From assembly GCF_036365525.1 (NCBI RefSeq), contig NC_090399.1:64784862-64848861 (forward strand): DNA of 64,000 bases. Direction: 5' to 3'. Positions 4,817 through 52,090 of the stretch are shown here, in pieces. Source of the DNA: Heterodontus francisci (Eukaryota). A program made the translations under genes and the position numbers. The notes beneath the pieces are model-generated. The model did not search any database, was not told the DNA's origin, and worked only from the letters and a program-made list of their open reading frames with translations. How positions within the stretch are numbered: position 1 is the first letter of the stretch; every line of letters starts with the position of its first letter.

Positions 4817-4919
4817 CTGCAGATAGAGTGGAGAGTGGGTGATAACCTGCAGATAGGGTAGAGAGTGGTCTATAATCCAGCAGATAGGGTAGAGAGTGGG
4901 CTATAACCGGCGGATAGAG
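4817..4919. repeat. ~30-31 bp tandem repeat, about 3.5 units
   Basis: ctgcagatag(a/g)gt(g/a)gagagtgg..ataa(c/t) repeated immediately before the 40-bp array. Confidence 0.75.
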
Positions 4920-6610
4920 CTATTGTAAATGAAACTGTTCCTCCAACTCAACACTAGAGTTATTGTAAATGCGATTGTTCAGCCAGTTCAACACTAGAGT
5001 TATTGTAAATGTGGCTGTTCATCCAGTTCAACACGAGAGTTATTGTAAATGAGACTGTTGATCCATTTCAACATTAGAGTTATTGTAAATGAGACTGTTC
5101 ATGCAGCTCAACACTAGAGTTATTGTAAATGCGATTATTCATCCAGTTCAACACTAGAGTTATTGTAAATGAAACTGTTCATCCAGCTCAACACTAGAGT
5201 TATTGTAAATGAGACTGTTCATCCATCTCAACACTAGAGTTATTGTAAATGAAACTGTTCATCCAGTTCAGCACGAGAGTTATTGTAAATGAAACTGTTC
5301 ATCCATCTCAACACTAGAGTTATTGTAAATGAAACTGTTCATCCAGCTCAACACTAGAGTTATTGTAAATGAAACTGTTCATCCAGTTCAGCACGAGAGT
5401 TATTGTAAATGAAACTGTTCATCCATCTCAACACTAGAGTTATTGTAAATGAAACTGTTCATCCAGCTCAACACTAGAGTTATTGTAAATGAGACTGTTC
5501 ATCCATCTCAACACGAGAGTTATTGTAAATGAGACTGTTCATCCAGCTCAACACTAGAGTTATTGTAAATGAGACTGTTCATCCAGCTCAACACTAGAGT
5601 TATTGTAAACGAGACTGTTCATCCAGTTCAACACTAGAGTTATTGTAAATGAAACTGTTCATCCAGTTCAACACAAGAGTTATTGTAAATGAGACTGTTC
5701 ATCCAGTTCAACACTAGAGTTATTGTAAATGAGACTGTACATCCATCTCAACACGAGAGTTATTGTAAATGAGACTGTTCATCCAGCTCAACACTAGAGT
5801 TATTGTAAATGAGACTGTTCATCCAGTTCAACACTAGAGTTATTGCAAATGAAACTGTTCATCCATCTCAACACTAGAGTTATTGTAAATGGCTGTTCAT
5901 CCAGTTCAAGACTAGAGCTATTCTAAATGGGACTGTTCATCCATTTCAACATTAGAGTTATTGTAAATGAGACTGTTCATCCAGTTCAACACTGGAGCTA
6001 TTGCAAACGAGACTGTTCATCAAGTTCAACACGAGAGTTATTGTAAACGAGACTGTTCATCCAGCTCAACACTAGAGTTATTGTAAATGAGACTGTTCAT
6101 CCAGCTCAACACTAGAGTTATTGTAAATGAGACTGTTCATCCAGTTCAACACTAGAGTTATTGTAAATGAGACTGTTCATCCAGTTCAACACTAGAGTTA
6201 TTGTAAATGAGACTGTTCATCCATCTCAACACTAGAGTTATTGTAAATGAGACTGCTCATCCTGCTCAACACTAGAGTTATTGTAAATGAAACTGTTCAT
6301 CCAGCTCAACACTAGAGTTATTCTAAATGAGACTGTTCATCCAGTTCAACACCAGAGTTATTGCAAATGAGACTGTTCATTTAGCTCAACACTAGAGTTA
6401 TTGTAAATCCAAATGTTCATCTAAATTTGCACCAAGATTGTTATAAATGATGTGGTCATCCAGATCAACACAAGGTTATTATAAGTTAGACAGTTTTGTT
6501 TCCCAGCTGAATACCAGTGATACAGTAAATGACACTGTTCGTACATCTCATCACCAGGGTTACTGTCAAATAGGCTGTTCATGCAGTTTAGCACCAGGGA
6601 TCATAGCAAA
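4915..6610. repeat. 40-bp satellite array upstream of GPCR copy 1
   Basis: Unit tagagttattgtaaatgagactgttcatccagctcaacac, about 37 clear units to ~6410, then degenerate units to ~6610. Confidence 0.97.
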
Positions 6611-6901: not shown

Positions 6902-6971
6902 ATGGAATACCCTGTAATTTATCAGTTGGATCTCATTTACTATCCTCTTCTTGCAGCTGTAGGTATTCCAG
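6902..6971 (+). CDS. GPR139/142-like class A GPCR, copy 1, coding exon 1 (MEYPVIYQLDLIYYPLLAAVGIP + 1 nt)
   Basis: gaaATGG Kozak context with an in-frame stop upstream, donor CAG|GTAAGA, phase 1 matching the acceptor at 9581. It supplies the first half of TM1 missing from the ORF. Confidence 0.9.
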
Positions 6972-7634
6972 GTAAGACAGTGAAATGAGACAGTAAAATT
7001 TAAATATCAATTTGTGCCTGTCAATGTTATGTTTTCCCTGTTCTGTGGTATCAGCTCAGTGTGAAATTTTTCTCTTGATTACTTAATGTGATTTTTAATT
7101 GCAAAAATAATGTTTCTTCAATTTTCACCACAACATCAAAACAACAATCCCATTTATTGTTTGCAGTACAAAACCGTCCTCAAAGGTTGCACCAGATCAG
7201 ATCAGAAAGAAATTACTATTTTAATGTCCCAATGTTGTTAAGTGGGTTACACTTGTAACATGGTGATTTTAATAATGATTAATTTTTAACATTATTTCAT
7301 GTACAAATATGTTTTATTTAACTGCAGAGGTTTCACCTGTTGCTTAGACTTGATTCCAGCTAAGATGTTTTTTGCGGTTGTTTTAAGTGGATGGGAACAT
7401 TCAGCAATTTCTGTTCGTGGTGTGCGACCCACCTGCCAGATTTTCCATTCTGCGCTTTGCCCAGGTGACGTTTAACACAAGCGTCATACGAGGAAAAGTT
7501 ACCCCATTAATATCAAGCCAGGAATCCATATCAAACTGTCACTGTTTTTGAAAAGTTCTACTCAATTGTACAAGATGTGTAAAATCAGAAAAGTTCAGGT
7601 GTGCTTGCAACTGCCGTCTGTGTGCAGATTTGTG

Positions 7635-7953
7635 GGCAGCACAGTGGCGCAGTGGTTAGCATTGCAACCTCACAGCTCCAGGGACCCGGGTTCAATTCTG
7701 GGTGCTGCCTGTGCGGAGTTTGTAAGTTCTCCCTGTGACCACGTGGGTTTCCTCTGGGTGCTCCGGTTTCCTCCCACAGCCAAAGATTTGCAGGTGATAG
7801 GTAAAATAGCTGTTGTAATTTGCCCCTGATGTAGGTAGGTGGTAGTGAATATGGGATTACTGTAGGGTTAATATAAATGGGTGGTTGATGGTCAGCACAG
7901 ACTCGGTGGGCCGAGGGGCCTGTTTCAGTGCTGTATCTCTAAATAAAATTAAA
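7635..7953 (+). mobile_element. tRNA-derived V-SINE (HE1-like) in intron
   Basis: A box tggcgcagtgg, B box gggttcaattc, core gggtgctccggtttcctcccac, CR1-type tail gggccga.gggcctgtttcagtgctgtatctc(taaa)n. Confidence 0.9.
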
Positions 7954-8134
7954 GTTAAAATTTCAGGTGTGCTTGCGACTGCCGGCTGGCTGCAGATTTG
8001 TGGTTCATGGAAAGCTCAAGGGGTAGATTTTGACAATAGGTGACGGAGTAAAACAAGAGATACTGAACCCGCATCCGGCTTTCCAGTTCTCCTGACTTAC
8101 AATATTGCAGAAAGTCAAAATCTAACTCCATCTG

Positions 8135-9427
8135 TAAAGACCATAGTCCAAAAGAGCCAGAGAGGCCTCGACAAGTGATATGGAACATATCCCAACAGGA
8201 CAAGAGAGCCCTCTACAAGTTATATGGAACATATCCCAACAGGACAAGAGAGCCCTCTACAGGTTGTACAGACCATAGCCCAACAGGACAAGAGAGCCCT
8301 CTACAGGTTGTACAGACCATAGCCCAACAGGACAAGAGAGCCCTCTACAGGTTGTACAGACCATAGACCAACAGGACAAGAGAGCCCTCTACAGGTTGTA
8401 CAGACCATAGACCAACAGGACAAGAGAGCCCTCTACAAGTGAAATAGAACATATCCCAACAGGACAAGAGAGCCCTCTACAGGTTGTACAGACCATAGCC
8501 CAACAGGACAAGAGAGGCCTCGACAGGTTGTACAGACCATAGCCCAACAGGACAAGAGAGCCCTCTACAAGTTGTACAGACCATAGCCCAACAGGACAAG
8601 AGAGCCCTCTACAGGTTGTACAGACCATAGCCCAACAGGACAAGAGAGGCCTCGACAGGTTGTACAGACCATAGCCCAACAGGACAAGAGAGCCATCTAC
8701 AAGTTGTACAGACCATAGCCCAACAGGACAAGAGAGCCCTCTACAAGTTGTACAGACCATAGCCCAACAGGACAAGAGAGCCCTCTACAAGTTGTACAGA
8801 CCATAGCCCAACAGGACAAGAGAGCCCTCTACAGGTTGTACAGACCATAGCCCAACAGGACAAGAGAGCCCTCTACAAGTTGTACAGACCATAGCCCAAC
8901 AGGACAAGAGAGCCCTCTACAGGTTGTACAGACCATAGCCCAACAGGACAAGAGAGCCATCTACAAGTTGTACAGACCATAGCCCAACAGGACAAGAGAG
9001 CCCTTTACAAGTGAAATAGAACATATCCCAACAGGACAAGAGAGCCCTCTACAAGTTGTACAGACAATAGTCCAACAGGACATGAGAGCCCTCTACAGGT
9101 TGTACAGACCATAGCCCAACAGGACAAGCGAGCCCTCTACAAGTGAAATAGAATATATCCCAACAGGACAAGAGAGCCCTCTAGAGGTTGTGCAGACCAT
9201 AGCCCAACAGGACAAGAGAGCCCTCCACAAGTGAAATAGAACATATCCCAACAGGACAAGAGAGCCCTCTACAGGTTGCACAGACCATAGCCCAACAGGA
9301 CAAGAGAGCCCTCTACAAGTTGTACAGACCATAGCCCAACAGGACAAGAGAGCCCTCTACAAGTGAAATAGATCATATCCCAACAGGACAAGAGAGCCCT
9401 CGACAGGTTGTACAGACCATAGCCCAC
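8135..9427. repeat. 44-bp intronic minisatellite, copy 1 (~29 units)
   Basis: Unit acaggttgtacagaccatagcccaacaggacaagagagccctct, with a variant unit acaagtgaaatagaacatatcccaac. Confidence 0.96.
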
Positions 9428-9581
9428 CAATGAACAATTTAATTTTTAATTAAAATTTATATTTAGTTCAGAACTAGAAAACTGATATGTCAATACTTTC
9501 TTAATCAACTTTAGACAATTCTTCAAATAAAAGATTTTGGGACAGTTTTGAGGTAATTTTTAGGTTTCGTGTTTCTTACAG

Positions 9582-10477
9582 TTAACTTGGTGGCAATTGT
9601 GATCCTGTCCCGAGGGAAGTGCGGTCTCTCCAAATGCATCACTCACTACCTGGTGGCCATGGCAGCGGCCGATCTGACAGTGGTTATCGTCCATGTGATA
9701 TTACAACGGATTAATATCTTGTACTTGCCAATTAATTTCCTATCTCTGACTCCTGTGTGCAAGGTAAACTTTGTTGCATACATTGTAGCTGTAGACTGTT
9801 CTGTCTGGTTTACTGTCACCTTCACTTTTGATCGCTTTGTAGCAATTTGCTGTCAGAAGCTACAATCAAAATATTGCACCAGGAAAATGGCGAGAGTAGT
9901 TATCACTACTGTTTTTGTGGTGAGCTGTCTGAGGACCATCCCCTTTTACTACATGAATGAACCTGCCTTTATTATTGACAATATGCCATGGTTCTGTGCT
10001 TCCACAGCTGATTATTTCACTTCCCCCTTGTGGAAGGCATTTGAGTGGATCGACAGCATCATAACCCCTCTATTACCAATCCTTCTAATTCTGTTGTTCA
10101 ATGCACTAACTGTCAGAAACATTATACTAGCAAATAGAGTGCGCAGAGAACTCCGGAGTAACAGTGAGAATCAGCATGATCCAGAGGTGAAGAATCGGAG
10201 GAAATCCATGATTTTACTTTTTGCTATTTCTTCCAATTTCATCCTTTTGTGGATGTTGTATGTTGTGCATTCATTAATCTGGCCAGTGGCAAATTTCTTT
10301 TACACAGACAAATATTACAGTAACCCAATATATATTGCCCAACAAGTTGGGTTTATGCTGCAGCTTCTCAGTTCCTGCACAAATAGTTGTATCTATGGAC
10401 TGACACAGAGGAAATTCAGAGAGGAGCTGAAGAATGGGGTGATTTTTGTTTTTACACTGAACAGGAAATTATGTTAA
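9582..10477 (+). CDS. GPR139/142-like class A GPCR, copy 1, coding exon 2 (spliced protein 321 aa)
   Basis: Acceptor tttcttacag|TT. Seven hydrophobic segments: TM1 Asn (IPVNL), TM2 LVAMAAADL, TM3 FDRFVAICC, Cys pair PVCK/PWFC, TM7 TNSCIY. No disabling changes. Confidence 0.93.
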
Positions 10478-10611
10478 AAACAAATAACTAGCATTGACCT
10501 GGAACCGAGCAAATAACTTTTCAGGCCATCTGTGGGCAGGTGAAGAGCAAATAGAAGATTGGTTATCTTCAATGAGATTTTATATCATTATGTACAATAG
10601 AATATTAAAAA

Positions 10612-10952
10612 TGGCGCAGTGGTTAGCACCGCAGCCTCACAGCTCCAGCGACCCGGGTTCAATTCTGGGTACTGCCTGTGTGGAGTTTGCAAGTTCTCCC
10701 TGTGTCTGCGTGGGTTTCCTCCGGGTGCTCCAGTTTCCTCCCACATGCCAAAGACTTGCAGGTTGATAGGTAGATTGGTCATTATAAATTTCCCCTAGTA
10801 TAGGTAGGTGGTAGGGAAATATAGGGACAGGTGGGGATGTGGTAGGAATGTGGAATTAGTGTAGGATTAGTATAAATGGGTGGCTGATGGTCGGCACAGA
10901 CTCGATGGGCCGAAGGGCCTGTTTCAGTGCTGTATCTCTAAACTAAACGAAA
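10612..10952 (+). mobile_element. V-SINE (HE1-like) ~135 nt downstream of the copy 1 stop codon
   Basis: Same SINE consensus; absent at the equivalent site in copy 3 (~52188). Confidence 0.9.
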
Positions 10953-11289
10953 CAAATGAAAGGTAAAGAATGTAAAAATGGATAACATGGTTATACATGA
11001 AATACTCCATCATTAATTTGGCCACTAAGTTTGTGGTTTTAGAGCAACAATACACCATCTAATTTATTCCACATAAAGGAGAGATATTGCTAATAAAAAA
11101 ATGTCCCGACATGCACTATAATGCACAGTTGAATGAACACATGTAAACATTTTGTTTCCAGAACAAACTCACATAGTTTATAAAAGGGAAAATTGCAGGA
11201 AAAAAGATGCCTCAAAAAAGATGTCTAAAGGTTATCAAATGTTTGGAAAACATCTGTTCATTGACATTACCTTGACTCTCTCTCTTTCC

Positions 11290-12030
11290 CTAACAGAATT
11301 TCATGGTATTCCCCATATTTGTTAGCCAACTCCAAGGGACAGATACTTGAGCATTATTGCTACACAACTGGATCTTGCTGGAGCACATGAAGCTGGCCTC
11401 ACTTTCTCTAAGCACCTAATCTCCAGGGTCACCCTGAAATGCAAAGATAACCCCTGTGTCTTTTTCATTACCATTAGCCTTTTTATAGCCTGATCCCCTG
11501 CCTGCTCCTGTCTCACCTCCAATGACAGGTGCATGAATGTCTTCACCACTTAGTTAAGAACATCCATTCACCTGCTTCTGTTGAAATTCATGTTTGCTTC
11601 CCATCAAACCAAACCTATCCGAGGCTCCCTTTGTCCTGGCACTGAACCAAATGCTTTTGCTGGCTGTCCCTGTCTCTATTCGAACTTGTCGTGTCCACAA
11701 AACCCACCGCCTGCTGTCTTGAGCTAGTTCCACTTTAATGACAACTCAACCTCTGTTCCATTATCCGATGTTAGTTGATAATTAACACCTGACCTTCTTC
11801 TCAGCTTCTGCCCCCTCCCTTTCAAAACCACCATTGAAAGCCCTTCCTCAAATGTCAATCCTCAACTCCTCTGTTCTTCCAAACTGTAACCACATGGCGA
11901 ACCCCAATTTTATCATCAAATTCCTTCAACATGTTACTTCCTTCCATATCCAAGCTCATATTTCTGAACATTCCAAATTTGATTCTCTTCAATCACACTC
12001 TCTGTGGGTGATGCACAATCCCTCTACAGG
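11290..12030 (+). mobile_element. Old, highly decayed L2-like LINE remnant (also ~33610-34350 and ~52540-53270)
   Basis: KALPQMSILNSSVLPNCNHMANPNFIIKFLQHV resembles the degraded pre-RT motif PLLKK..LDP..L.NYRPISNLPF.SK.LE; pyrimidine-rich strand. Confidence 0.5.
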
Positions 12031-12149
12031 ACCTCCTCAATCTCTCTGCAACCTATCATGTGGTTGACTACACCATCTCCTGTAATGTCTCTGAACCACT
12101 TCATGAAGACGTGTTTCCTGATTTCTCTCTTCAAAGGCCTGTTTTTTTT

Positions 12150-14250
12150 TTAGACTCTGCCCCCCCCCCCTCTAGCCTTAAACTCCCCAACCAGCAGAAG
12201 TTGTTTATCTCTCTCTAACCCACCTTTTCCTCTTAATATATTGAAAACATCGATCAAATCACCCCTTAAACTTCTAAATTGCAGTAAATGCAAATGTAGT
12301 TTGTGTAATATCCTCTTGTAAATTAACCATTGTCGTCCAGGTATCATCTTGGTAAATCATCGCCACTACACTCCCTACAAGGCTAATATATCCTTTGTAA
12401 GTTGTGCTGCCCCGAACTGCTCAATGTACTCCAGGCGTGGTTTAACCAGGGCTTTGTATACCTGAAGCATGACGTCTACTCTCTTGTATTCTACTCCTCC
12501 AGATATAAAAGCCAGAATTCCATTCGACGTTTTGATTGTGATTTGTCCCTGTTCATGTCATTTTAATGATCAATGTACCGGGATACACATGTCTCTTTGT
12601 TTCCAGCTTTCTACCATTTAGGAAGTAACCTGTTCTATCCTTTTAATGTCTCATGTTGATGACCTCACATTTTCTCACATTGAAAACCATTTACCACAGT
12701 TTTGTCTCTTCACTTAATCTATCAATATGTCTTTATATTTTTATCCTTCCATCTGCACTACTTACAACACTGGTCAGTAATTTACCTTCAATTTCATCAG
12801 CTTCAAATGTAGCTAACTGTTGCATTTATCAAATTTCTTCTGAAAATCTATATCAGTACAATTTGTAAGACATTCCCCTGCCCACTACTTTAGTCACCTC
12901 TTGATTTATCAGGCATGACCTAACCTTGACAAAGTCACACTGACTCCCTCTGATCAGCTGAAAATGTTCAAGGTGTTCAGTCACACTATCCTGAATGATA
13001 AGGATAATGCACTCTAACATTTCCTGACTGTGGATGTTAAGCTAACTGCTCTTTAATTCTCTGTGTTTCTGCTCTCTACTTTCTGAAATAGTGGATTGCC
13101 ACACATAGTTTTCTAATCTGAAGGAACAGTTCACGAATCGGGAGAGCTTTGGAAGATTATTTAACAAGATTATCACCCAGTTCCTATGAAAATTCCAGCA
13201 TGTAAACCATCTGGTCCTAGGGATTTCTCACTCTTAAACACAATTATATTTTTCACTTCTGTTATTTTCTGTGCGTTATTTTTGACTGATGCCTGCCCCT
13301 GATTCCACATTAATTTACGAGGAATGTCTGTCATGCTGACCTCTTCCTCTAATGTAATTAATGAACCAAAATAATTATTCAGCTGGTCGGCCCTTTCCTT
13401 ATTTTCAATGACAATATCACCACTAAATGTTTTCAAGGAACCCACATTGTTCCTCTTTTCCCCAATGTAACTGAAAGGTTTTTGTGTTGGTGTTGATATC
13501 TCTTGCATGGTTCTTTTCATACACAATTTTAGCAGCCTTTACTATCTGTTTTGTCATCAATTGCTGTTATTCTATCTTTCCCAATGGTCAGGATATGTGT
13601 TTTTATTTACATTTTGTATGCTTTCTCTTTCAGTTTTATGTTTCATCTTAAATCTTTAGTTGCTCATGACTGTTTATTGGCTAGTTTGTATTTTGCCCCT
13701 GAGGGTATATACTGGTTCTGTATCATATTACATACTTTTTGATCATCTTCCACTGTTCTTATGTCATTTTACCCATGAACAGATTTGTCCAGTTTACTGT
13801 GGACACTGTTTCATCCCATTGAGTCAGCCTTACTTAAATCTAGAATCTTAGTAACTGTTTTGTGATTCTCCATTTCAAACACTCCGTTAAACTCAATAAT
13901 ATTATCATCGAATGGTTATAGCACAGAGGAGGCCATTTGTCCCATTGTGTCTGTGCCATTCTCTCCCTAGTCTAGTCCCACTTCCCCGCCTTTTCTTTGT
14001 ATCACTGCATTTCATTTCTCATTCAATTCCCTTTTGAAAGCCATGATTGAATCTGCCTTCATCGTACTCTCAGGCAGTGCATTCCAGATCCTAATCACTC
14101 ACTGTGTAAAAAGCTTTTCATTATGTCACCGTTGCTTATTTTGCCAATCACTTTAACTCCGTCTCCTCTGATTCTCGATCCTTCCACAACAGGAACAGTT
14201 TCTCCCTATCGACTGTATCCAGATCCATCATGGTATTGACTGTCCTCCTC
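12150..14250 (-). mobile_element. Decayed CR1 LINE ORF2 fragments (also 34470-36560 and 53400-56340)
   Basis: Minus-strand peptides LRGDLIDVFNILRG and ENKERADQLNNYFGSL..KSLGPDGLH, plus CR1 3' UTR-like sequence at 13910-14230. Confidence 0.75.
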
Positions 14251-14729
14251 TAAAATCCTTCATTAATGGTCATTTTTAACCAACTATCTTCAATGTCCCA
14301 GCAAACATTTATTTCTGACTGTGTCTATAATTCCTTTTGATAGCTTTTTTCTATGTGAAAGGTGCTATACAAATGCAAGTTAGTTTTTTTTACTGTGTTT
14401 CCAGTTACAACACCGATGTTCAAAAGGAAAGGTGGGGCAATCGCTCTAAATTAAGACAATTCACCTTAACATCAGCAGTGGACAAGATCTTGAGAGCATA
14501 ATGTAGAGTAGTACTCAGTTGGCAATACACCAATTGATTACAGGAATACACAATTAGACACCATCCTTTGAAAACACATAATAGAGTCTCTTGTTTAGGA
14601 AAATACAGTTTATATTGTGCACACTGATTGACACAGACTGACAGTGTATTAATGAATCCAGTAGTTTGAGAATAAAGTTGATTCAGGACATTCAACAGAA
14701 AATACTGATGAATAGATGGAGGACTGAGG

Positions 14730-15550
14730 TCACAGGTCACTTTATAAAACAGTAGTTCGGCCTCAACTGGAGGATTGTGTCCAATTCTGGGCACTGCACT
14801 TTAGGATGGTTGTGAAGGATTTGGAGAGGGTGCAGAAAAGATTTATGAGAATGATTCCAGGAGTGAGGTGTCATGAGTTTCTTTGTTTTATCTTGAGCAA
14901 CACAGTGAGGTGCATGGATTCCAGTTCTTTGAAGATCTCTAGACAGTTTATTAACAGCTAAACTAGTACATACAATATGGAGCAAACTATATACAGAACC
15001 TTTGTCCAGGGTGTTACCATGCAGAGTGACTATCACTTCAAGTCACATGACTATAACCTAGTACTTATCTCATCAGCATACTGAGTTCTTAAAGGGACAT
15101 CACTCTTAAAGCAATCATACAACATGAGATACTGCATTATTGAGGATAGATTGGAGAAGCTGGATTTGTTCTCCTTAGAGAAGGTTGAGAGGAAATTTGA
15201 TGGAGGTGTTCAAAATCAAGAGGGGTTTGGACCGAGGAGATGGAGAGAGAGAGAGCAGACACACATTTTAGGTGATCAGCAAAAGAAACAAAGGCGACAT
15301 GAGAAAACTTTTCATGCACCAAGTGGTTAAGGACCCGGAATACACAGACTGAGAGTGTAGTGTTGGCAGATTCTATTGTGACTTTCAAAAGGGAAATGGA
15401 TAAGCACCTGAAGATAAAAAAAGTGCATGGTTATGGGGAAAGGGTGGGGGTATGGAACTGGCTGAGATGCTCTTGCAGGGAGCTGGCATGGGACTGGACA
15501 GGCCGAATGGCTTCCATCAGTGCCATGAAACATTCCATGATTCTATGATG
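14730..15550 (+). mobile_element. CR1 LINE 3' end interrupted by a solo LTR (also 37050-37510 and 56810-57630)
   Basis: LYKTVVRPQLEDCVQFW...RLEKLDLFSLE..., ending in (ttctatga)n. Confidence 0.8.
14869..15124 (-). mobile_element. Solo LTR, 256 bp
   Basis: Begins TGT, ends ACA, flanked by tgagg/tgaga, AATAAA on the minus strand, cleanly interrupts the CR1. Second copy at 56946-57200. Confidence 0.7.
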
Positions 15551-16484
15551 CTGGAATGTCACAGCATTGTCACCGGAGATCACAGGGCCTCAAAATAGAG
15601 ACATAGAGCAGTCACCATGAATGGTTCAGCACAAGTGTTGTTCCCAGAACACAAATACACTGGAGTTTTGCATTGGACAAATGATCAAAATGTACAAGTG
15701 AAAAGAATTCACTATCAGCCAGTGTGTAAGAGATTTCAGGAGGATGTTGACATTTTAGTAGATTGGGCACAGAGAAAATAGGAAAAATACATTGCAGAAT
15801 GAAATGAAAGGGATTGAGCAGCTGAAAGACATGAAACTTCCGATCTTTCAATTATATAGCACACCACATCTTCCAAAGCTGTCTCTGCTCTTCATTACCA
15901 TTGGTTTGCTCTCGAATTGCAGTCGCTGTGGTTCCTGGAGGTAGGTCTGACAGCAAATCTACACACAAGGTCCCACAAACAGCAATACGATAAATGCCCA
16001 GTTAAATTTGATGTGTTAATCGCATTAACGATGACCAAGTTAAGATGATAATAACAATGAGAGATATTTAATGATGAACACAGACTAGAGAAAGCTTTTA
16101 ATGAACTGACTGGAGAAATATTTTCACTCAAGTTGGTGAATTGAAAACGATAGGGCTCACATTAAATATCAAAATCGATGAAATTGTGGTGAAATCTCAC
16201 CCTCAAACTCTTTCATCCAACACTTTACTGAAAGCCTGATGTTATTTAACACAAACCGAAACAATGTTTATTCTCGAGCAAAGTCCACAAAATCACAGCT
16301 AAAGTTAATTTCCTCTTTAAGATTTTACTTGGAAATTCCCACATTCATTTGTTCTTCCAACTACAGAAACACAGAGAAGTTAAACAAATCTTTGGGCTCA
16401 ATCAGTCAGTGCTGGTGTTCATTATCACAACAGCAAATAGTTCACATGTACTCAGACTGTTTCCATATCCCCTCAATCAGTCAA

Positions 16485-16758
16485 GACAGCAGTTTGATTG
16501 GCCAAAACTCCACAAAGATGTGGTGGAGTACTGCAGGAGTTGCCACATGTGCCAGGGCAACCCCAAGCTGCAATGAAACCTGCACCCCTAAGTCCTGTAC
16601 TGGTGTTAGGAAGATTCTCCAGCAGAGGGCTGGTGAACTGTAAGGGACCCAAGCTAAGAACAAAAGGGGACAGGCAGACACAAGGCTGGAAAAAAGTTTA
16701 GAAAGAGAAGGGGAAAAAGTGACCAAGAGGGCAGGTTAAAGGAGGTCTGGGAGGAATC
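16485..16758 (+). mobile_element. Gypsy (Gmr1-like) integrase fragment (also 58555-58833)
   Basis: FDWPKLHKDVVEYCRSCHMCQ..KPAPLSPV is an integrase zinc-binding region. Confidence 0.8.
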
Positions 16759-16789
16759 TCTAATCTATCTTTGTAAATGAAGCATCTCA

Positions 16790-18330
16790 TCCTCATCCCA
16801 AGATCCATCCTCTTGAATCTTTTCTACACTCTCTCCAAAACTTTCACATCTTTCCCAAAGTGTGGTGCTCAGAACTGGACACAATACTCCAGTTGAGGCC
16901 GTACTAGTGTTTTATACAAGTTTAACATAACCTCCTTGCTCTTGTAATTTATGCCCCTATTAACAAAGCCTATGATAATGATCGCTTTATTAACCACTCT
17001 CTCACCTGTCCTGCCACCTTCAATGATTTATGCACAAAAACACCCAGGTTCCTCTACTGCTGCCACCTTTAGAATTGTACCCATTATTTTATATTGCCTT
17101 TCCTTGTTCTTCTTACCAAAATGAATCACTTCACACTTCTCTGCATTGAACTTCATTTGCCAATTGTCCGCCCATTCCACCAACATGTCTATGTCCAAAC
17201 ACCGTTCTATAAAATCCTCCTCACAGTTCACAATGATTCCAAGTTTTATATCATGTACAAATTTTGTAATTATGCTCTATACACCAAAGCCTAGGTATTA
17301 ATATATATCAGGAAGAGCAAGGGTCCCAACACTGATCCCTGGGGAACTTCACTACAAAACTTCCTCCAGTCCCAATAACATCCATTAACCACTGCTCTCT
17401 GTATCCTGTCACTTAGCCAATTTTGTATCCATCTTTCTACTGTTCCTTTTATTCCATGAGAAATAATTTTGCTCACAAGTCTGTTGTGTGACACTGTATC
17501 AAATGCCTTTTGGAAGTCTATGCACACCACATCAACAGCAATACCCTCATCAACCCTTTTATTTATTTATTTAGCGAAAAGGCACTGAAACAGGCTCTTC
17601 GGCACACCGAGTCTGTGCCGACCAGCAACCACCCATTTCTACTAATCCTACATTTATTCCATATTCCCTACCACACCCCCACCATTCTCCTACCACCTAC
17701 CTACACTAGGGGCAATTTACAATGGCCAATTTACCTATCAACCTGCAAGTCTTTGGCTGTGGGAGGAAACCGGAGCACCCGGCGCAAACCCACACAGTCA
17801 CAGGGAGAACTTGCAAACTCCGCACAGGCAGGATCCAGAATTAACCCAGGTCACAGGAGCTGTGAGGCTGCGGTGATAACCACTGCGCCACTGTGCCGCC
17901 CTCTCCATTACCTCTTCAATAAACTTCAGCAAGTTCGTTACACACAATTTTCCCTGAACAAATCCATGCTGGCTTTCCTTAATTAACCTGCATTTGTCAA
18001 AGTGACTATTCATTTTGTCTGGAATTATTGTTTCTAGAAGTTTCCCCACCGCCAAGGTCAAACCGACTGGCCAGTATTTGCTGGGTTTATCGTTACACCC
18101 TTTTTTAAACAAAGGCATAATATTTGCAATTCTCCATTCCTCTAGCACCACCCTGTGTTGAAGAAGACTGGAAAATTATGACCAGTGCATCTGCAATTTC
18201 CATTCTCACTTCCCTCATTATCCTTGGATGCATCTCATCTGGTCCTGGAGCCTTAACAACCTTTAAGTACAGACAACTTACCAATACCTCCTCCTGATCA
18301 ATTTTAAATGCCCTTTCATGTTAGCTACCA
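16790..18330 (-). mobile_element. CR1 LINE reverse transcriptase region
   Basis: EEWRIANIMPLFKKG, ESQHGFVQGK, IDFQKAFDTVSH, VPQGSVLGPLLFLIYIN, WQMKFNAEKCEVIHFG. Confidence 0.92.
17557..17901 (-). mobile_element. V-SINE (HE1-like) nested in CR1
   Basis: Reverse complement of the SINE consensus with a (taaa)n tail. Confidence 0.88.
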
Positions 18331-18864
18331 GTCTCCTTTCATAGCCTCTCTTTGCCCCTCTTATTGGCTTTTTCACTTCCCCTCTGAACCTTCGATATTC
18401 ACCTGGTTCTCCAACTGACATCTACTTTTACATTTTACTGGCATTTTACTTTATAAAATAAATACAAGACTGAGTGAGATTGGCCCCAGCATAATCCTTT
18501 CACAACAAGTTTTCTGGAGTATAACATCGTAGCAGAGGATGGTTTCCGAAAGGGGAAGGCTGGAAACTAAGAACATTTTTTTATCACAGAAAATTAAAAT
18601 CCCAGTGGCTATTGTGGAAAATGTCAGAAAGCAAGTGTAAATTGTCAGGGTATGATTACCCTCTGATGTTGTCTGAGTCTGAACCAGTGGAAGAATAAAG
18701 TAGATATGTGGACACGGGTTACATTCCTACGAAACGGCAAACAAAGTATGTCCTTGGTATTGTCACTTCCTATAGAACTAAAGTATTTCCTGAACTGGAA
18801 GCTCCTCAGTTGGAGACTGATGAAGGTTTGGATTTTTGTGTGAATTCTTGGATGAAATTTACAA

Positions 18865-20530
18865 ACAGGCTTGCTTAGGTTTAAAGAAAAAAAGTTGAAA
18901 TGTATTAAATTTAAACTCTAATTCTGATGAAGCCTACGAATAGACAACACGCCTACACAAGCATGCATACGCAATACACAGATGCAAATAGAGACAGAAA
19001 AGAGCAGAAGAAAAATAAAGTGGAAAAGTTTGAGGCAATATCTGAAGAGTTGTTGTTACAGTTCTTCGAGCTCACTGCAGAGTCCTTAATTGTATTTAGA
19101 TCTTACTTTTGATTGGGGCCCAATATTCTCCTTAAACTTTCTTCACTGTAGGAGACTTTTCTCTTTTGGAGTTCATGTGTCTTCAGTAGGTATTGGAGTT
19201 CCTGTAAATGCTGTTAGCAACTCTGGTGGGGTGTTTCCAGTGTCTGCATTTACATAGGAGGATGTGGGATCTAACTTTTCAAAATTTCTGGGGTTGGCTG
19301 ACCGGCCAGTAGGTGTTTTCATCTGGGATTCCTCCCAGACTTCCTCGAACCTGCCCTCTTAGTCACTTTTTCCCCTTCTCTTTCTGAACACTGTCTGCTC
19401 TTTGCTCTCAGGTCTGTGAGGAGAACTCCATTTCCTCATCAGTACCTCATTCTTTAAATAGTAACAATCAGGGACTCCATCTGCTTCACTTTCAGACTGT
19501 GCTAGCTCTCGCAATACTTGGTCGACTCGCAGAGCCTCAGCTCGGGAATATCCATTTGATTCATTCCCTGGGTCTCCTAACTTTCCAAAGAAAGTCTCGG
19601 ACAGACAGACCTCATGGTTATCTGCCTGCAGTGCCAATTCCGTCTCCTATGGGGGAGCTGGTTTGATCATGGCCTGATTCATGACACATTAAGGACAACT
19701 GCAGGGGACCGTCTCCTGCCACTGCCCTGTCTCTCTGACCTCCTGCGGTCTTTCATTCACTACTGGGGGAGGATACCACCTTCACCCCGCCAGATCATTA
19801 CTAAGGAGCAAGTCAACCCTGTCCACAGGCAAACTAGGGACCATCCCAATGGTCACTGGTACCAAAACTAGGTCACACTCCAGGTGCACCCAGTGCACAG
19901 GTACAGACATACACTGCTCTCCAATACCATTCACCACCATTCTGGGGTTCACTGCACTCGCTGGGGGAAAGGTCAGGCCTTTTCCCAGTAAAAGGGATCT
20001 AGTAGTCTCTGGGAATTACTGTGGGCTTGCTTGCCCCACTCGAGGAGTATGTGGTTACTTTCCCTCCACACAATACCCTGAGAACCTTCAGGAATCCTAT
20101 TAAATTTTCCTGCACTTGTCCTAGTAAATGTCCTGGGTTGCACTCTTACTGCAGTTAAAGCCCCAGTTTGTTCTGCTGTGCTTTCTATCAGGCTACCTCA
20201 GGGATGTGTCCTGATTAACCCTACAGTTTCAAGCTGTCGGATTTTAAATGCCCTGCTTTATTACAATGGAAGCACACAGGTCTCCGGGTCTCAGTCTTGC
20301 TCACAACACCTTCCATTTTGGCAAGAGGAGGGCCGCTGTTTTTCCTGCTTTCCTTTCTCTCCGAGGTCTGATGGGCTCAATCACGTTCTCATCCTTTGTC
20401 CCTTTCGGACCCTTCCTGACAGCTGTTTAGGAATTTTGGGGTTGTCAAAGTAGTTTCAGGGCCTGGGAAGGGGGTAAGAAATGGCTGTATAATGACCTGA
20501 AGAAATTAATTGAACATTTTAACAATAGCC
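18865..20530 (-). mobile_element. Internally deleted Gypsy/Gmr1-like LTR retrotransposon (gag knuckle, protease, pre-integrase region, part of LTR)
   Basis: CFHCNKAGHLKSD (~20235-20275), VPSLPVDRVDLLLSNDLAG, GVPDCYYLKNEVLMRKW. 18865-19385 is the reverse complement of 38665-39185. Confidence 0.75.
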
Positions 20531-20533
20531 AAG

Positions 20534-20620
20534 TCCCTCTCTCTCTATCTCTCTATCTCTCTCTCTATCTCTCTATCTCTATCTCTCTCTATCTCTACCT
20601 CTCTCTCTTTATCTCTCCCT
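20534..20620. repeat. (CT)/(CTAT) microsatellite
   Basis: Direct observation. Confidence 0.9.
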
Positions 20621-24550: not shown

Positions 24551-24631
24551 CTATCACCTTTCTGACAGAAATATACCTGTCCAGGTGACAAGCAGCTGCC
24601 GAGACATTCAGTGTGTTTACAATGTACAGTG

Positions 24632-24730
24632 TTCTCATGAAGGGTCAATGACCTGAAACGTTAACTCTGCTTCTCTCTCTCCACAGATGCTGCCAGACCT
24701 GCTGAGTATTTACAGCATTTCTTGTTTTTA
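24632..24730 (+). mobile_element. Short Penelope-derived terminal fragment (also 42805-42902)
   Basis: gaagggtcaatgacctgaaacgttaactctgcttctctc..ccacagatgctgccagacctgctgagt matches 63890-63980. Confidence 0.75.
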
Positions 24731-24998
24731 TATACAGAGTCACTTTCTGTTTACAGGGTTCATTGATGTCCCCAAATAATTTGAGGCTGAAGGAGTAACA
24801 CTGGTTAAGAGCTGAACAGGGCCCTCATAAGTTATCAAAGTTCTTGCCTGCAGCAACCATTCATCTGCAATGCGAATGGCAGAGCAACAAATTCCATTGT
24901 CTGCTCATAATTCAGGGGAAGGAAACCAATCAGCAAGTAGATCACTCTCCATGTGATCAGAGGATGTGAACAGGCTTTTCTGTGTGGTAAACCCCCAA

Positions 24999-30190: not shown

Positions 30191-30260
30191 ATGGAATACC
30201 CTGTAATTTACCAGATAGATCTCATTTACTACCCTCTTCTTGCAGTTGTTGGTATTCCAG
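30191..30260 (+). CDS. GPR139/142-like GPCR, copy 2, coding exon 1 (MEYPVIYQIDLIYYPLLAVVGIP)
   Basis: Same 70-nt exon with CAG|GTAAGA donor. Confidence 0.9.
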
Positions 30261-30923
30261 GTAAGACAGTGATATGAGACAGTAAAATTTAAATATCAAT
30301 TTGTGCCTGTCAATGTTATGTTTTCCATGTTCTGTGGTATCAGCTAAGTGTAAACTAATTCTCTTGATTACGAAATGTGCTTTTTAATTGCAAAAATAAT
30401 GTTTCTTCAATTTTTACCACAACATCAAAATAACAATCCCATTTATTGTTTGCAGTACAAAACCCTCCACAAAGGTTGCACCGGATCAGATCAAAAATAA
30501 ATTAGTATTTTAATGTCCCAATGTTGTTAAGTGGGTTACACTTGTAACATGGTGATTTTAATAATGATTAATTTTTAACATTATTTCATGTACAAATATG
30601 TTTTATTTAACTGCAGAGGTTTCAGCTGTTGCTTCGACTTGATTCCAGCTAAGATGTTTTTTGCTTTTGTTTTAAGTGGATGGGAACATTCAGCAATTTC
30701 TGTTAGTGGTGTGCGACCCACCTGCCAGATTTTCCATTCTGCGCTTTGCCCAGGTGACGTTTAACACACGTGTTGTAAGAGGAAAAGTTACCCCATTAAT
30801 ATCAAGCCAGGAATCCATATCAAACTGTCATTGTTTTTGAAAAGTTCTACTCAATTGTACAAGATGTATAAAGTCAGAAAAGTTCAGGTGTGCTTGCAAC
30901 TGCCGTCTGTGTGCAGATTTGTG

Positions 30924-31242
30924 GGAGGCACAGTGGCGCAGTGGTTAGCACCGCAACTTCACAGCTCCAGGGACCCGGGTTCGATTCTGGGTGCTGCCTG
31001 TGCGGAGTTTGTAAGTTCTCCCTGTGACCACGTGGGTTTCCTCTGGGTGCTCCGGTTTCCTCCCACAGCCAAAGATTTGCAGGTGCTAGGTAAAATAGCT
31101 GTTGTAATTTGCCCCTAATTTAGGGAGGTGGTAGTGAATATGGGATTACTGTAGGGTTAATATAAATGGTTGTTTGATGGTCAGCACAGACTTGGTGGGC
31201 CGAAGGGCCTGTTTCAGTGCTGTATCTCTAAATAAAATTAAA
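30924..31242 (+). mobile_element. V-SINE (HE1-like), same insertion as 7635-7953
   Basis: Same site and flanks as in copy 1. Confidence 0.9.
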
Positions 31243-31424
31243 GTTAAAATTTCAGGTGTGCTTGTGACTGCTGGCTGGCTGCAGATTTGTGCTTCATGGA
31301 AAGCTCAAGCGGTAGATTTTGACAATAGGTGATAGAGTAAAACAAGATATACTGAACCCGCATCCGGCTTTCCAGTTCTCCTGACTTACAATATTGCAGA
31401 AAGTCAAAATCTAACTCCATCTGT

Positions 31425-31746
31425 AAAGACCATAGTCCAAAAGAGCCAGAGAGGCCTCGACAAGTGATATGGAACATATCCCAACAGGACAAGAGAGCCC
31501 TCTACAGGTTGTACAGACCATAGCCCAACAGGACAAGAGAGGCCTCTACAGGTTGCACAGACCATAGCCCAACAGGACAAGAGAGCCCTAGACAGGTTGC
31601 ACAGACCATTGTCAACAGGAAAAGAGAGACCTAGACAGGTTGCACAGACCGTTGTCAACAGGACAAGAGAGCCTTAGACAGGTTGCACAGACCATAGCCC
31701 AACAGGACAAGAGAGCCCTCGACAGGTTGTACAGACCATAGCCCAC
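31425..31746. repeat. 44-bp intronic minisatellite, copy 2 (~7 units)
   Basis: Same unit as 8135-9427. Confidence 0.93.
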
Positions 31747-31900
31747 CAATGAACGATTTAATTTTTAATTAAAATTTATATTTAGTTCAGAACTAGAAAA
31801 CTGATATGTCAATACTTTCTTATTCAACTTTAGATAATTCTTCAAATAAAAGGTTTTGGGACAGTTTTGAGGTAATTTTTAGGTTTCGTGTTTCTTACAG

Positions 31901-32796
31901 TTAACATGGTGGCAATTGTGATCCTGTCCCGAGGGAAGTGCGGTCTCTCCAAATGCATCACTCACTACCTGGTGGCCATGGCAGCGGCCGATCTGACGGT
32001 GGTTATCGTCCATGTGATATTACAACGGATTAATATCTTGTATTTGCCAATTAATTTCCTGTCTCTGACTCCTGTGTGCAAGGTAAACTTTGTTGCATAC
32101 ATTGTCGCTGTAGACTGTTCTGTCTGGTTTACTGTCACCTTCACTTTTGATCGCTTCGTCGCTATTTGCTGTCAGAAGCTACAATCAAAATATTGCACCA
32201 GGAAAATGGCGAGAGTAGTTATCACTACTGTTTTTGTGGTGAGCTGTCTGAGGACCATCCCCTTTTACTACATGAATGAACCTGCCTTTATTATTGACAA
32301 TATGCCATGGTTCTGTGCTTCCACAGCTGATTATTTCACTTCCCCCTTGTGGAAGGCATTTGAGTGGATCGACAGCATCATTACCCCTCTATTACCAATC
32401 CTTCTAATTCTGTTGTTCAATGCACTAACTGTCAGAAACATTATACTAGCAAATAGAGTGCGCAGAGAACTCCGGAGTAACAGTGAGAATCAGCATGATC
32501 CAGAGGTGAAGAATCGGAGGAAATCCATGATTTTACTTTTTGCTATTTCTTCCAATTTCATCCTTTTGTGGATGTTGTATGTTGTGCATTCATTAATCTG
32601 GCCAGTGGCAAATTTCTTTTACACAGACAAATATTACAGTAACCCAATATATATTGCCCAACAAGTTGGGTTTATGCTGCAGCTTCTCAGTTCCTGCACA
32701 AATAGTTGTATCTATGGACTGACACAGAGGAAATTCAGAGAGGAGCTGAAGAATGGGGTGATTTTTGTTTTTACACTGAACAGGAAATTATGTTAA
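31901..32796 (+). CDS. GPR139/142-like GPCR, copy 2, coding exon 2 (spliced protein 321 aa)
   Basis: Acceptor tttcttacag. The exon 2 protein equals copy 1 except L>M at its third residue. Confidence 0.93.
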
Positions 32797-39665: not shown

Positions 39666-39669
39666 TCCA

Positions 39670-40680: not shown

Positions 40681-40684
40681 AGAC

Positions 40685-49043: not shown

Positions 49044-49113
49044 ATGGAATACCCTGTCATTTACCAGTTGGATCTCATTTACTATCCTCTTCTTACAGCT
49101 GTTGGTATTCCAG
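49044..49113 (+). CDS. GPR139/142-like GPCR, copy 3, coding exon 1 (MEYPVIYQLDLIYYPLLTAVGIP)
   Basis: Same 70-nt exon with CAG|GTAAGA donor. Confidence 0.9.
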
Positions 49114-49756
49114 GTAAGACAGTGAAATGAGACAGTAAAAGTTAAATATCAATTTGTGCCTGTCAATGTTATATGTTTATCGAGCTCACCCTGTTCTGTT
49201 GTATCAGCGAAGTGTGCAGTAATTCTCTTCTTTTCTTAATGTGGTTTTTAATTGTAAAAATACCATTTCTTCAATTTTCACCACAACATTGAACAAACAA
49301 TCCCATTTATTGTTTGCAGTACAAAATCCTCCACAAAGGTTACACTGGTATCAGATCAGAAATAAGTTAGTATTTTAATGTCCCAAAGTTGTTAAGTTGG
49401 TTACACGTGTAACGTGGTTATTTGAATAATGATTAATTTTTAACATTGTTTTATGCATAAATATGTTCTTTTTTTACTGTGGAAGTCTCACTTATTGCTT
49501 AGACATATTTCCAGTCTAGATTGTTTTTGTGGTTGGTTTAAGTGGATGGGGAAATTCAGCAATTTCGTGTAGGTGCACAAGCTGCTAGTGGCTGGCTGCA
49601 GATTTGTGGCTCATGGGTAGATTTTGACATCATGTGATAGTGTTAAACAGGACATATTGAATCCGTATCTAGCTATCCATTTCTCCTGACTCACAATATT
49701 GCAGAAAATCAAAATCTAACTGTTGTAGCAGGATGTGAGAGTTCACAATCCAAGTT

Positions 49757-50787
49757 GGAAAGACCATAGCCCAACAGGACAAGAGAGCATTCTACAGATT
49801 GTACAGACCATAGCCCAACAGGACAAGAGAGCCCTCCACAAGTTGTACAGACCATAGTCCAACAGGACAAGAAAGCACTCTACAAGTTGTACAGATCATA
49901 GCCCAATAGGACAAAACAGCATTTGCAGGTTGTACAGACCAAAGCCCAAGAGGTCAACAAGGCATTCTACAGGTTGTACAGACCACAGCCCAACAGGACA
50001 AGAGAGCCACCTGCAAGTTGTACAGATCATAGCCCAATAGGATAAGAGAGCATTTTACAGGTTGTACAGAGCACAGTCCAACAGGAAAAGAGAGCCCTCT
50101 ACAAGTTGTACAACCATAGTCCAACAGGACAAGAGAGTCCTCTACAAATTGTACAGACCATAACCCAAAAGGACAGGAGAGCATTCTACAGGTTGTACAG
50201 ACCATAGCCCAACAGGACAAGAGAGCCCTCTACAAGTTGTGCAGACCATAGACCAACAGGACAAGAGAGCATTCTGCAGGTTGTACAGACCATAGCCCAA
50301 CAGGATAAGAGAGCCCTCTACAAGTTGTGCAGACCATAGCCCAATAGGACAAGAGAGCATTCTACAGGTTGTACAGACCATAGCCCAACAGGACAAGAGA
50401 GCATTCTCCAAGCTGTACAGATCATAGCCCAACAGGACAAGAGAGCATTCGACAGGTTGTACAGACCATAGCCCAACAGGACAAGAGAGCCCTCAACAAG
50501 TTGTAAAGACCATAGCCCAGCAGGACAAGAACACACTCTTCAAATTGTACAGATCATAGCCCAACAGGAGAAGAGAGCACTCTACAAATTGTACAGACCA
50601 TAGACCAACAGGACAAGAGAGCATTCTGCAGGTTGTACCGACCATAGCCCAACAGGACAAGAGAGCCCTCTGCAGGTTGTACAGACCATAGCCCAACAGG
50701 ACAAGAGAGCATTCTACAAGTTGTACAGACCACAGCCCAACAGGACAAGAGAGCCCTCTACAAGCTGTACAGACCATAGCCCAACGG
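49757..50787. repeat. 44-bp intronic minisatellite, copy 3 (~23 units)
   Basis: Same unit with gagcattct/gagccctct variants. Confidence 0.95.
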
Positions 50788-51155
50788 GGCAGAGTTGATC
50801 TTTTTTTTCATTTTGGAGAAAGTTGTTCCTTATAAAAGAGTAACTGTGTGTTTCACACACATTAATTCTCCAGAAATATCACAATATATATATTTTTTAC
50901 CTCAGCACCTTTGCCTCCTATTTGACATCAGCATCTTTATTCACATTTTCACTCATCCTGTAGTTTCATTTTCCACATTTGCCAGAGATTGCTCGGCCCA
51001 CCAGTGAACAGTTCAACTTTTTATTAAAATATATATTTTGTTCAGAACTAGAAAACTGATATGTCAATACTTTCTTAATCAACTTTAGATAATTCTTCAA
51101 ATAAAAGATTTTAGGACAGTTTTGAGGTAATTTTTAGGTTTCCTGTTTCTTACAG

Positions 51156-52090
51156 TTAACTTGGTGGCAATTGTGATCCTGTCCCGAGGGAAGTGCGGTC
51201 TCTCCAAATGCATCACTCACTACCTGGTGGCCATGGCAGCGGCCGATCTGACGGTGGTTATCGTCCATGTGATATTACAACGGATTAATATCTTGTACTT
51301 GCCAATTAATTTCCTATCTCTGACTCCTGTGTGCAAGGTAAACTTTGTTGCATACATTGTAGCTGTAGACTGTTCTGTCTGGTTTACTGTCACCTTCACT
51401 TTTGATCGCTTTGTAGCAATTTGCTGTCAGAAGCTACAATCAAAATATTGCACCAGGAAAACGGCAAGAGTGGTTATCACTACTGTTTTTGTGGTGAGCT
51501 GTCTGAGGACCATCCCCTTTTATTACATGGATGAACCTGCCTTTATAATTGATGATGTGCCATGGTTCTGTGTTGCCACAGCTGATTATTTCACTTCCCC
51601 CTTGTGGAAGGCATTTGAGTGGATCGACAGCATCATAACCCCTCTATTACCAATCCTTCTAATTCTGTTGTTCAATGCACTAACTGTCAGAAACATTATA
51701 CTAGCAAATAGAGTGCGCAGAGAACTCCGGAGCAACAGTGAGAATCAGAATGATCCAGAGGTGAAGAATCGGAGGAAATCCATGATTTTACTTTTTGCAA
51801 TTTCTGCCAATTTCATACTTTTGTGGATGTTGTATGTTGTGCACTCATTAATCTGGCCAGTGGCAAATTTTTTTTATGTTGACAAATATTACAGTAACCC
51901 AATATATATTGCCCAACAAGTTGGATTTATGCTGCAGCTTCTCAGTTCCTGCACAAATACTTGTATCTATGGACTGACACAGAAGAAATTCAGAGAGGAG
52001 CTGAAGAATGGGGTGATTTTTGTTTTTACACTTAATGGGAAATTATGTCAAAAACAAATAACTAGCATTGACCTGGAACCGAGCAAATAG
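51156..52090 (+). CDS. GPR139/142-like GPCR, copy 3, coding exon 2 (spliced protein 334 aa)
   Basis: Acceptor tttcttacag; intact 7TM frame; 13-aa longer C-terminus QKQITSIDLEPSK. Confidence 0.93.

What the first reader, a model, noticed from the sequence alone, without database searches (positions are those of the whole stretch)
9582..16758. Copy 1 is a patchwork of copy 2-like and copy 3-like tracts, with a switch inside the coding exon
In the first ~270 nt of exon 2, copy 1 matches copy 3 against copy 2 (AACTTG vs AACATG, TAC vs TAT, CTA vs CTG, GTA vs GTC, TTTGTAGCA vs TTCGTCGCT). From ~9888 onward it matches copy 2 against copy 3, including ECL2, the earlier stop and the downstream SINE. 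It switches back to copy 3 near 16050-16170 (aaatatcaaaatcg, shared 7-bp gap at tgccag^ggcaacc, and everything to 20546). The satellite edge is copy 3-like, whereas the intron SINE is shared with copy 2. Inference: repeated gene conversion or unequal crossover is shuffling TM1-3 and TM4-7 halves to make chimeric receptors.
Basis: partly seen in the sequence, partly recalled or inferred. Interest (0 to 1): 0.7.

Follow-up and report, generated by a model that had tools for sequence, protein, structure and literature searches.

The report
Gene conversion among shark receptor copies
Three neighbouring, nearly identical receptor genes of a shark have swapped stretches of DNA, an ordinary process in gene arrays, and the swap inside the gene changes only one amino acid.

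Summary
The mosaic is real. The window holds three intact two-exon class A GPCR genes; copies 2 and 3 are letter-for-letter horn shark proteins labelled 'probable GPR139'. At 9570-9887 copy 1 differs from copy 3 at 1 of 318 sites and from copy 2 at 8; at 9888-14521 it differs from copy 2 at 14 of 3849. Random interleaving is rejected (1 of 100,000 shuffles in exon 2). Corrections: the clean return to copy 3 is at 16521-16545, not 16050-16170; only the upstream 40-bp satellite edge is copy 3-like. The functional inference fails: 6 of the 7 diagnostic sites are synonymous, the seventh (L26M) is private to copy 2, and copies 1 and 2 differ by three residues in all. At least two more copies lie outside the window, and their proteins show that the 5' half has a tangled history in all five, so copy 1 need not be the recipient. 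Best reading: ordinary non-allelic gene conversion or unequal crossover, mostly homogenising. No read data phase the exon switch. The more interesting lead is the large elasmobranch expansion of this orphan receptor family.

The parts
4915..6610 (.). 40-bp tandem array upstream of exon 1 of copy 1; its right edge (about 6395-6460) is copy 3-like
6902..6971 (+). Copy 1 exon 1 (70 bases, ATG to GT donor); three copies about equally diverged here (5.7-8.6%)
7634..7947 (+). Intron SINE-like repeat shared by copies 1 and 2, absent from copy 3; copies 1 and 2 differ by about 4% around it (30 of 731 columns), so this sharing is old
8133..9426 (.). Intronic 44-bp tandem array of copy 1; both edges copy 2-like
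9570..9887 (+). Tract in which copy 1 is nearly identical to copy 3 (1 difference in 318) and differs from copy 2 at 8 sites; longest stretch of the block without a copy 3-specific site
9582..10477 (+). Copy 1 exon 2, intact; spliced protein 321 aa, class A GPCR
9845..9887 (+). Switch zone, 43 bases identical in all three copies (codons 112-125, end of TM3 and ICL2)
9888..14521 (+). Tract in which copies 1 and 2 are nearly identical (14 differences in 3849 gap-free three-way columns; 187 copy 3-specific sites); small mixed patch at 10527-10595
10612..10957 (+). Downstream SINE-like repeat shared by copies 1 and 2, absent from copy 3
14522..15235 (.). Mixed patch (14522-14710: 8 copy 3-type, 5 copy 2-type sites) followed by 360 bases (14876-15235) missing from copy 2 only
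16031..16545 (.). Unresolved zone, all three pairs 2-3% apart; last copy 2-type sites at 16482-16520
16546..20547 (.). Older copy 1 / copy 3 tract (about 2% diverged), starting in a retroelement integrase remnant; includes the shared 7-base gap near 16556
30191..32796 (+). Copy 2 gene (exon 1 30191-30260, exon 2 31901-32796), 321 aa, identical to P0121 (XP_067865235.1)
49044..52090 (+). Copy 3 gene (exon 1 49044-49113, exon 2 51156-52090), 334 aa, identical to P0001 (XP_067865236.1)

Best explanation
A tandem array of at least five near-identical orphan class A GPCR genes in the horn shark exchanges sequence by non-allelic homologous recombination (gene conversion, probably with unequal crossovers). 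Shown: tracts with different pairwise divergences. Inferred: they are separate events of different age, namely an old copy 1/copy 2 relationship in the intron (about 4%), an older copy 1/copy 3 tract downstream (about 2%), and two young tracts that meet in exon 2: about 0.3 kb shared by copies 1 and 3 (0.3%) and about 4.6 kb shared by copies 1 and 2 (0.4%). The exon switch is where these two tracts abut. The direction of transfer is unresolved. The net effect is homogenisation: copies 1 and 2 have the same TM4-7 half and the 5' tract falls in a half that is almost invariant in the array, so no meaningfully new receptor arises from this switch.
For: Clustering of informative sites. Synonymous divergence flips while copy 2/copy 3 stays similar: codons 25-125 c1-c3 1/73, c1-c2 7/73, c2-c3 6/73; codons 126-321 c1-c2 1/126, c1-c3 15/127, c2-c3 16/127. 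Copy 3-specific sites resume on both sides of the short tract (9539, 9569; 9888 on). Copy 1 = copy 3 sites outnumber copy-1-private sites 52 to 17 (p = 3e-5), which a fixed tree ((1,2),3) with equal rates does not predict; simulations without recombination gave such a run in 1 to 4 of 4000 when rates varied along the sequence but equally on all branches. In five copies, 4 of 4 informative residues in 1-125 conflict with the best tree of the 3' half, while 9 of 12 in 126-322 fit it. Contigs of public runs match copy 1 exactly across mixed-site stretches 9486-9599 and 10413-10612. Protein effect: one replacement in the tract, three in all between copies 1 and 2.
Against: If local rates vary independently on each branch, the same run arises without recombination in 11-66% of simulations. 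The short tract rests on 7 sites and was chosen after the fact; on synonymous sites alone its deficit of copy 1/copy 3 differences is moderate (Fisher p = 0.02, Poisson p = 0.006). Non-coding divergence to copy 3 varies from 0.8% to 11% per 250 bases within the long tract. A strict segmentation penalty finds only three segments and does not isolate 9587-9844. No listed contig phases 9844 with 9888. DNA of the other copies could not be fetched.
Confidence: 0.7

Rival explanations
1. No copy 1/copy 3 exchange in the exon. Copy 2 is the odd one (it took short tracts from copies outside the window, or kept an older 5' part and gained its 3' part from copy 1), and copies 1 and 3 look alike in TM1-3 through constraint and array-wide homogenisation.
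For: L26M and A19V are private to copy 2 among five copies; copy 2 is 3-6 residues from the others in 1-125. A fourth haplotype in run X3 (record 17, 9466-9599) carries the copy 1/3 letters at 9504 and 9587 with copy 1/2 letters at 9539 and 9569 (its two differences read from table 3 by equal depth). Copy 2's differences come in tight clusters (three in 7 bases at 9838-9844; three in 17 at 10579-10595). Branch-specific rate variation reproduces the run.
Against: Constraint on protein does not explain 1/73 synonymous differences between copies 1 and 3 against 15/127 in the 3' half. A star tree gives 7 of 8 changes on one named branch with p = 0.003. This rival still needs recombination, only with other partners.
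Confidence: 0.13
2. One reading: recombination at the TM3/TM4 boundary is a recurring, functionally useful route that recombines receptor halves into new ligand specificities.
For: The switch lies at the end of TM3 / ICL2. The two halves have different histories across five copies. Replacements between copies are denser in ECL2 (5/72 sites against 7/353 in residues 172-321).
Against: The exchanged 5' tract differs by one conservative residue; residues 1-125 differ by 1-6 among the five copies against 9-11 in 126-309, so swapping them creates almost nothing new. One breakpoint cannot show recurrence; most switches found here are in non-coding DNA. Replacement rates stay below synonymous rates even in ECL2 (0.069 against 0.168).
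Confidence: 0.08
3. Assembly artefact: copy 1 is stitched from reads of different copies or haplotypes, or copies 1 and 2 are two alleles laid in tandem.
For: The copy 1/copy 2 tract differs by only about 0.4%, a level alleles could show (inference). The exon switch sits in 43 identical bases that the contigs cannot phase. Contig depths (9.3 for a copy 1-specific piece, 14-33 for shared pieces) fit either two loci or two alleles.
Against: Copy 1 has its own private letters in each tract, and its downstream tract is 2% from copy 3. Two mixed-site stretches are matched exactly by contigs of public runs. Copies 1 and 2 have unrelated upstream flanks and differ 4-9% in exon 1 and intron. There are several switches of different age, and discordance extends to five copies.
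Confidence: 0.07

Closest known systems
Gene conversion between the tandem chemokine receptors CCR2 and CCR5 (PMC8877049; abstract read)
   Same: Neighbouring class A GPCR paralogues exchange coding tracts and give mosaic genes.
   Different: By that abstract the converted regions are extensive and always include extracellular domains, between receptors of distinct function. Here the partners are 95-99% identical proteins and the tract changes one residue.
Non-allelic gene conversion and unequal crossing-over in clustered chemoreceptor families: TAS2R (PMC11798467, passages), olfactory receptors (PMC3308321 and PMC6969042, passages)
   Same: Tandem GPCR clusters that grow by unequal crossing-over and are proposed to be homogenised by conversion.
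   Different: This family has an intron in TM1, large repeat-laden duplication units of about 20 kb, and no known ligand or sensory role.
Human GPR139 (PDB 7vug, 9m42)
   Same: Best sequence match in the PDB (E 2.4e-14 single sequence, 1.4e-15 profile) and the source of the automatic name.
   Different: Only 22-23% identical in the structural alignments and ranked 6th and 14th among class A receptors. GPR139 is a single, conserved gene in mammals (recalled, no call); this is a multi-copy elasmobranch family.

Membership tests
Class A (rhodopsin-like) GPCR | Pfam 7tm_1 above the curated cut-off | tested here: met
   72-74 bits against 30.5 for 3 of 3 copies
Class A (rhodopsin-like) GPCR | Seven transmembrane helices, D-R-x motif at the end of TM3, TM3-ECL2 cysteine pair | tested here: met
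   Model of copy 3 has seven long helices plus a C-terminal helix (mean pLDDT 61.6, modest); D107, R108, C83, C162 invariant in 25 of 25 aligned relatives; all listed fold matches are class A receptors
GPR139 orthologue | High sequence identity to human GPR139 | tested here: not met
   56.6 bits; 22-23% identity
GPR139 orthologue | Phylogenetic placement and conserved gene neighbourhood | not tested
   No tree with vertebrate GPR139/GPR142 was built; no genome is held for this window
GPR139 orthologue | Activation by aromatic amino acids (recalled) | not testable with these tools
   Needs a cell assay
Interlocus gene conversion tract | Clustered discordant informative sites | tested here: met
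Interlocus gene conversion tract | Short tract of abnormally low divergence with the former relationship resuming on both sides | tested here: met
   1/318 between copies 1 and 3, against 6.8% on the left (148 columns) and 4.9% on the right (590 columns)
Interlocus gene conversion tract | Non-reciprocal transfer with an identifiable donor and recipient | tested here: inconclusive
   Three-way data fit copy 1 as recipient; residue 70 and the five-copy tree fit copy 3 as recipient; one residue only
Interlocus gene conversion tract | Phase confirmed on single molecules across the switch | tested here: inconclusive
   Left edge matched by one contig; 9844-9888 not bridged in the 24 pieces shown of about 1400
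Unequal crossover product | Copy-number change or reciprocal product among haplotypes | not tested
   Needs a second haplotype or other individuals

The most novel reading that the evidence does not exclude
The array is a sample of a very large, apparently undescribed elasmobranch repertoire of orphan GPR139-like receptors (2337 protein clusters found; the 116 named among the best 120 are all sharks and rays) in which a near-invariant TM1-3 half is kept uniform by conversion while the ECL2-bearing half diversifies and is reassorted, so that the family acts as a recombining chemosensory or immune recognition repertoire.
Probability: 0.12. Interest if true: 0.7.

Novelty: new member of a known kind. 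Interest (0 to 1): 0.27.

Why it matters
As found, it is a clear but ordinary case of exchange between tandem paralogues; it warns that gene trees and automatic names for these receptors are unreliable. It would matter more if breakpoints across the whole family proved to cluster at the TM3/TM4 boundary, or if this large orphan receptor family turned out to be an unrecognised sensory or immune repertoire of sharks and rays, which are reported to have few olfactory receptors (PMC11979771, passage).

Tried and rejected
No genome is held for this window, so the DNA of copies 4 and 5 and of outgroups was not available; polarity rests on proteins. The read table was dominated by distant family members, showed 40 of 74 variant rows and 24 of about 1400 pieces, and did not list most of the seven diagnostic sites, so it could not polarise them. 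No RNA holder listed; the 13 pieces of the one guessed-RNA run laid were all 90-95% alike, i.e. other family members: nothing on expression either way. Small shares were not used. One hand-entered Fisher table used 27 where the count is 29; it is not cited. NCBIfam gave nothing for 3 of 3 proteins, Rfam nothing in the window. Three look-ups of earlier findings returned nothing. Literature: no paper on this family was found (4 listed, none on it by title; 0; 1, unrelated by title; 0; 2, unrelated by title); term searches in 10.1101/2025.06.08.657570 and PMC11979771 found no mention of receptor 139 (main text passages only). The supplementary list of tandem clusters of that preprint was not seen and may name the family; most subscription papers are not in the library. 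One search gave no usable paper. Rejected: positive selection in ECL2 (replacement rate below synonymous rate); a single crossover explaining copy 1 (its copy 2-like and copy 3-like tracts differ in age, 0.4% against 2%); a fourth gene at 39.3-40.9 kb (no exon found).
Full report
What the window holds. Self-comparison shows three duplication units of about 20 kb, each with an intact two-exon gene: exon 1 of 70 bases, a GT-AG intron, and a long exon 2. The proteins are 321, 321 and 334 aa and match Pfam 7tm_1 well above the cut-off. Copies 2 and 3 are identical to database proteins named 'probable G-protein coupled receptor 139' of Heterodontus francisci; copy 1 matches a third, modelled with another C-terminus. 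Their 90% cluster has five members on a contig of the same length, so at least two close copies (here 4 and 5) lie outside the window. The name is loose: human GPR139 is the best PDB match but at 56.6 bits and 22-23% identity.

The observation. I aligned the three copies and classed each variable site by the copy that differs (columns within 4 of a gap dropped, 6091 kept for 9422-16758). In 9570-9887 copy 1 differs from copy 3 at 1 of 318 sites and from copy 2 at 8. In 9888-10477 it differs from copy 2 at 1 of 590 and from copy 3 at 29. Exon 2 has 37 informative sites in 4 runs (1 of 100,000 shuffles); the whole block has 303 sites in 48 runs against 87 expected (0 of 100,000). The switch lies in 43 bases common to all copies, codons 112-125, at the end of TM3 and ICL2 in the structure model. 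Synonymous divergence shows the same flip, while copy 2 against copy 3 stays similar in both halves (6/73 and 16/127).

Corrections. The return to copy 3 is not at 16050-16170: 16031-16545 is unresolved (5, 6 and 8 sites of the three kinds) and the clean switch is between 16520 and 16546. The right edge of the upstream 40-bp array is copy 3-like, but both edges of the intronic 44-bp array are copy 2-like. Mixed patches at 10527-10595 and 14522-14710 were missed. The short C-terminus is shared with copies 4 and 5.

The tracts have different ages. Copies 1 and 2 differ by about 4% in the intron where they share a SINE-like insertion (30 of 731 columns), by 2.5-2.7% from 9422 to 9887, and by 14 of 3849 from 9888 to 14521. 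Copies 1 and 3 differ by 86 of 4147 downstream and by 1 of 318 in the short tract. One crossover cannot give this. I infer several exchanges, two of them young and abutting in exon 2. Copies 2 and 3 in turn share an upstream block that copy 1 lacks (24545-27035 with 42717-45207, 97.3%), so all three are mosaics.

Who received what is open. With three sequences, copy 1 as recipient is the simplest reading of the exon. With five proteins polarised by five outgroups, the 3' half gives a tree with copy 3 outside the others (9 of 12 informative sites fit; a second tree that differs only in the order of copies 4 and 5 scores the same), and 4 of 4 informative sites in residues 1-125 conflict with it. 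One of these, L70, is derived and shared by copies 1, 2 and 3, which fits copy 3 having taken the tract from copy 1; it is one residue, and L also occurs in 7 of 84 more distant relatives. Copy 2 is the outlier in the 5' half, and a fourth haplotype in the reads shows that the first diagnostic site is simply private to copy 2.

Is it an artefact? Contigs of two public DNA runs of one sample, which may be the assembled individual, match copy 1 exactly over 9486-9599 and 10413-10612, stretches that mix both kinds of site at short spacing. No piece shown bridges 9844-9888; only 24 of about 1400 pieces were shown. Private letters in every tract, different ages and discordance across five copies argue against a chimera, but the exon switch is not directly phased. 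Against over-reading the statistics: simulations without recombination give the run in 1 to 4 of 4000 when rates vary equally on all branches, but in 11-66% when each branch has its own local rate, and the strictest segmentation does not isolate the short tract.

Function. Six of the seven diagnostic sites are synonymous; the seventh is L26 against M26. Copies 1 and 2 differ by three residues in all (9, 19, 26) and by none in 126-321. Residues 1-125 differ by 1-6 among the five copies, residues 126-309 by 9-11 except between copies 1 and 2. The switch therefore joins an almost invariant half to a half already present in copy 2. 'Chimeric receptor' is true on paper and empty in effect. Replacements between copy 3 and the others are denser in ECL2 (5/72) than in residues 172-321 (7/353) but stay below the synonymous rate.

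Comparison with what is known. Conversion and unequal crossing-over in clustered GPCR genes are described or proposed for CCR2/CCR5 (PMC8877049, abstract), TAS2R (PMC11798467, passages) and olfactory receptors (PMC3308321, PMC6969042, passages). This is a new instance of that process, with less protein consequence than CCR2/CCR5. The family itself may deserve more attention than the mosaic: 2337 of 3081 candidate clusters passed the search, the 116 named among the best 120 are all sharks and rays and 29 are horn shark, and five literature searches found no paper on it, within a library that lacks most subscription papers and without the supplement of the one preprint that surveys tandem clusters.

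Verdict. Observation largely right, with corrected boundaries; mechanism ordinary; functional inference not supported. Interest 0.27.

Noticed in passing
family-wide; window 9550-9700 and 9790-9870: The receptor family is very large in elasmobranchs: 2337 protein clusters. Summed contig depth reaches 110,780 at 9590-9629 against 9-33 for pieces identical to copy 1; the tool warns this is no copy number, but it hints at very many related sequences in this genome. No paper on the family was found.
   Followed up: partly
window 39314-40922: An exon-less remnant of an older copy: an intron piece 69% like 7196-7566 and a diverged 44-bp array (about 71%), with no receptor exon found by tblastn.
   Followed up: partly
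window 4915-6610, 27036-29890, 46570-48760; 8133-9426, 31427-31745, 49751-50785: Every gene copy carries a 40-bp tandem array just upstream of exon 1 (37, 67, 53 units) and a 44-bp array in the intron (29, 7, 24 units). The young exon tract begins about 140 bases after the 44-bp array; whether the arrays promote exchange was not tested.
   Followed up: partly
window 62661-63980: 573-bp inverted repeat, 97.9% identical arms, around a 178-base spacer whose translation holds a YIGET motif resembling a GIY-YIG endonuclease of Penelope-like elements (resemblance recalled; Pfam gave no hit).
   Followed up: partly
window 11326-11493: The database model of copy 1 (P0123) splices into an extra exon here and has a 364-aa product; the same open stretch exists in copies 2 and 3, whose models do not use it, so it may be an annotation quirk or an alternative C-terminus.
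   Followed up: partly
window 9973 and 9466-9599: Run contigs show haplotypes that match none of the three copies (copy 1/2-type sequence with the copy 3 letter at 9973; a fourth pattern at 9504-9587): alleles or further copies.
   Followed up: no
window 24545-27035 and 42717-45207: The upstream block shared by copies 2 and 3 has uneven divergence (0 differences in 500 bases beside bins with 12-18 in 250), suggesting further conversion tracts in non-coding DNA.
   Followed up: no
window 18866-19389, 38663-39184, 60940-61463: A retroelement-like segment runs forward after copy 2 and in reverse after copies 1 and 3 (89-90% identical to copy 2's), probably separate insertions of one family.
   Followed up: partly
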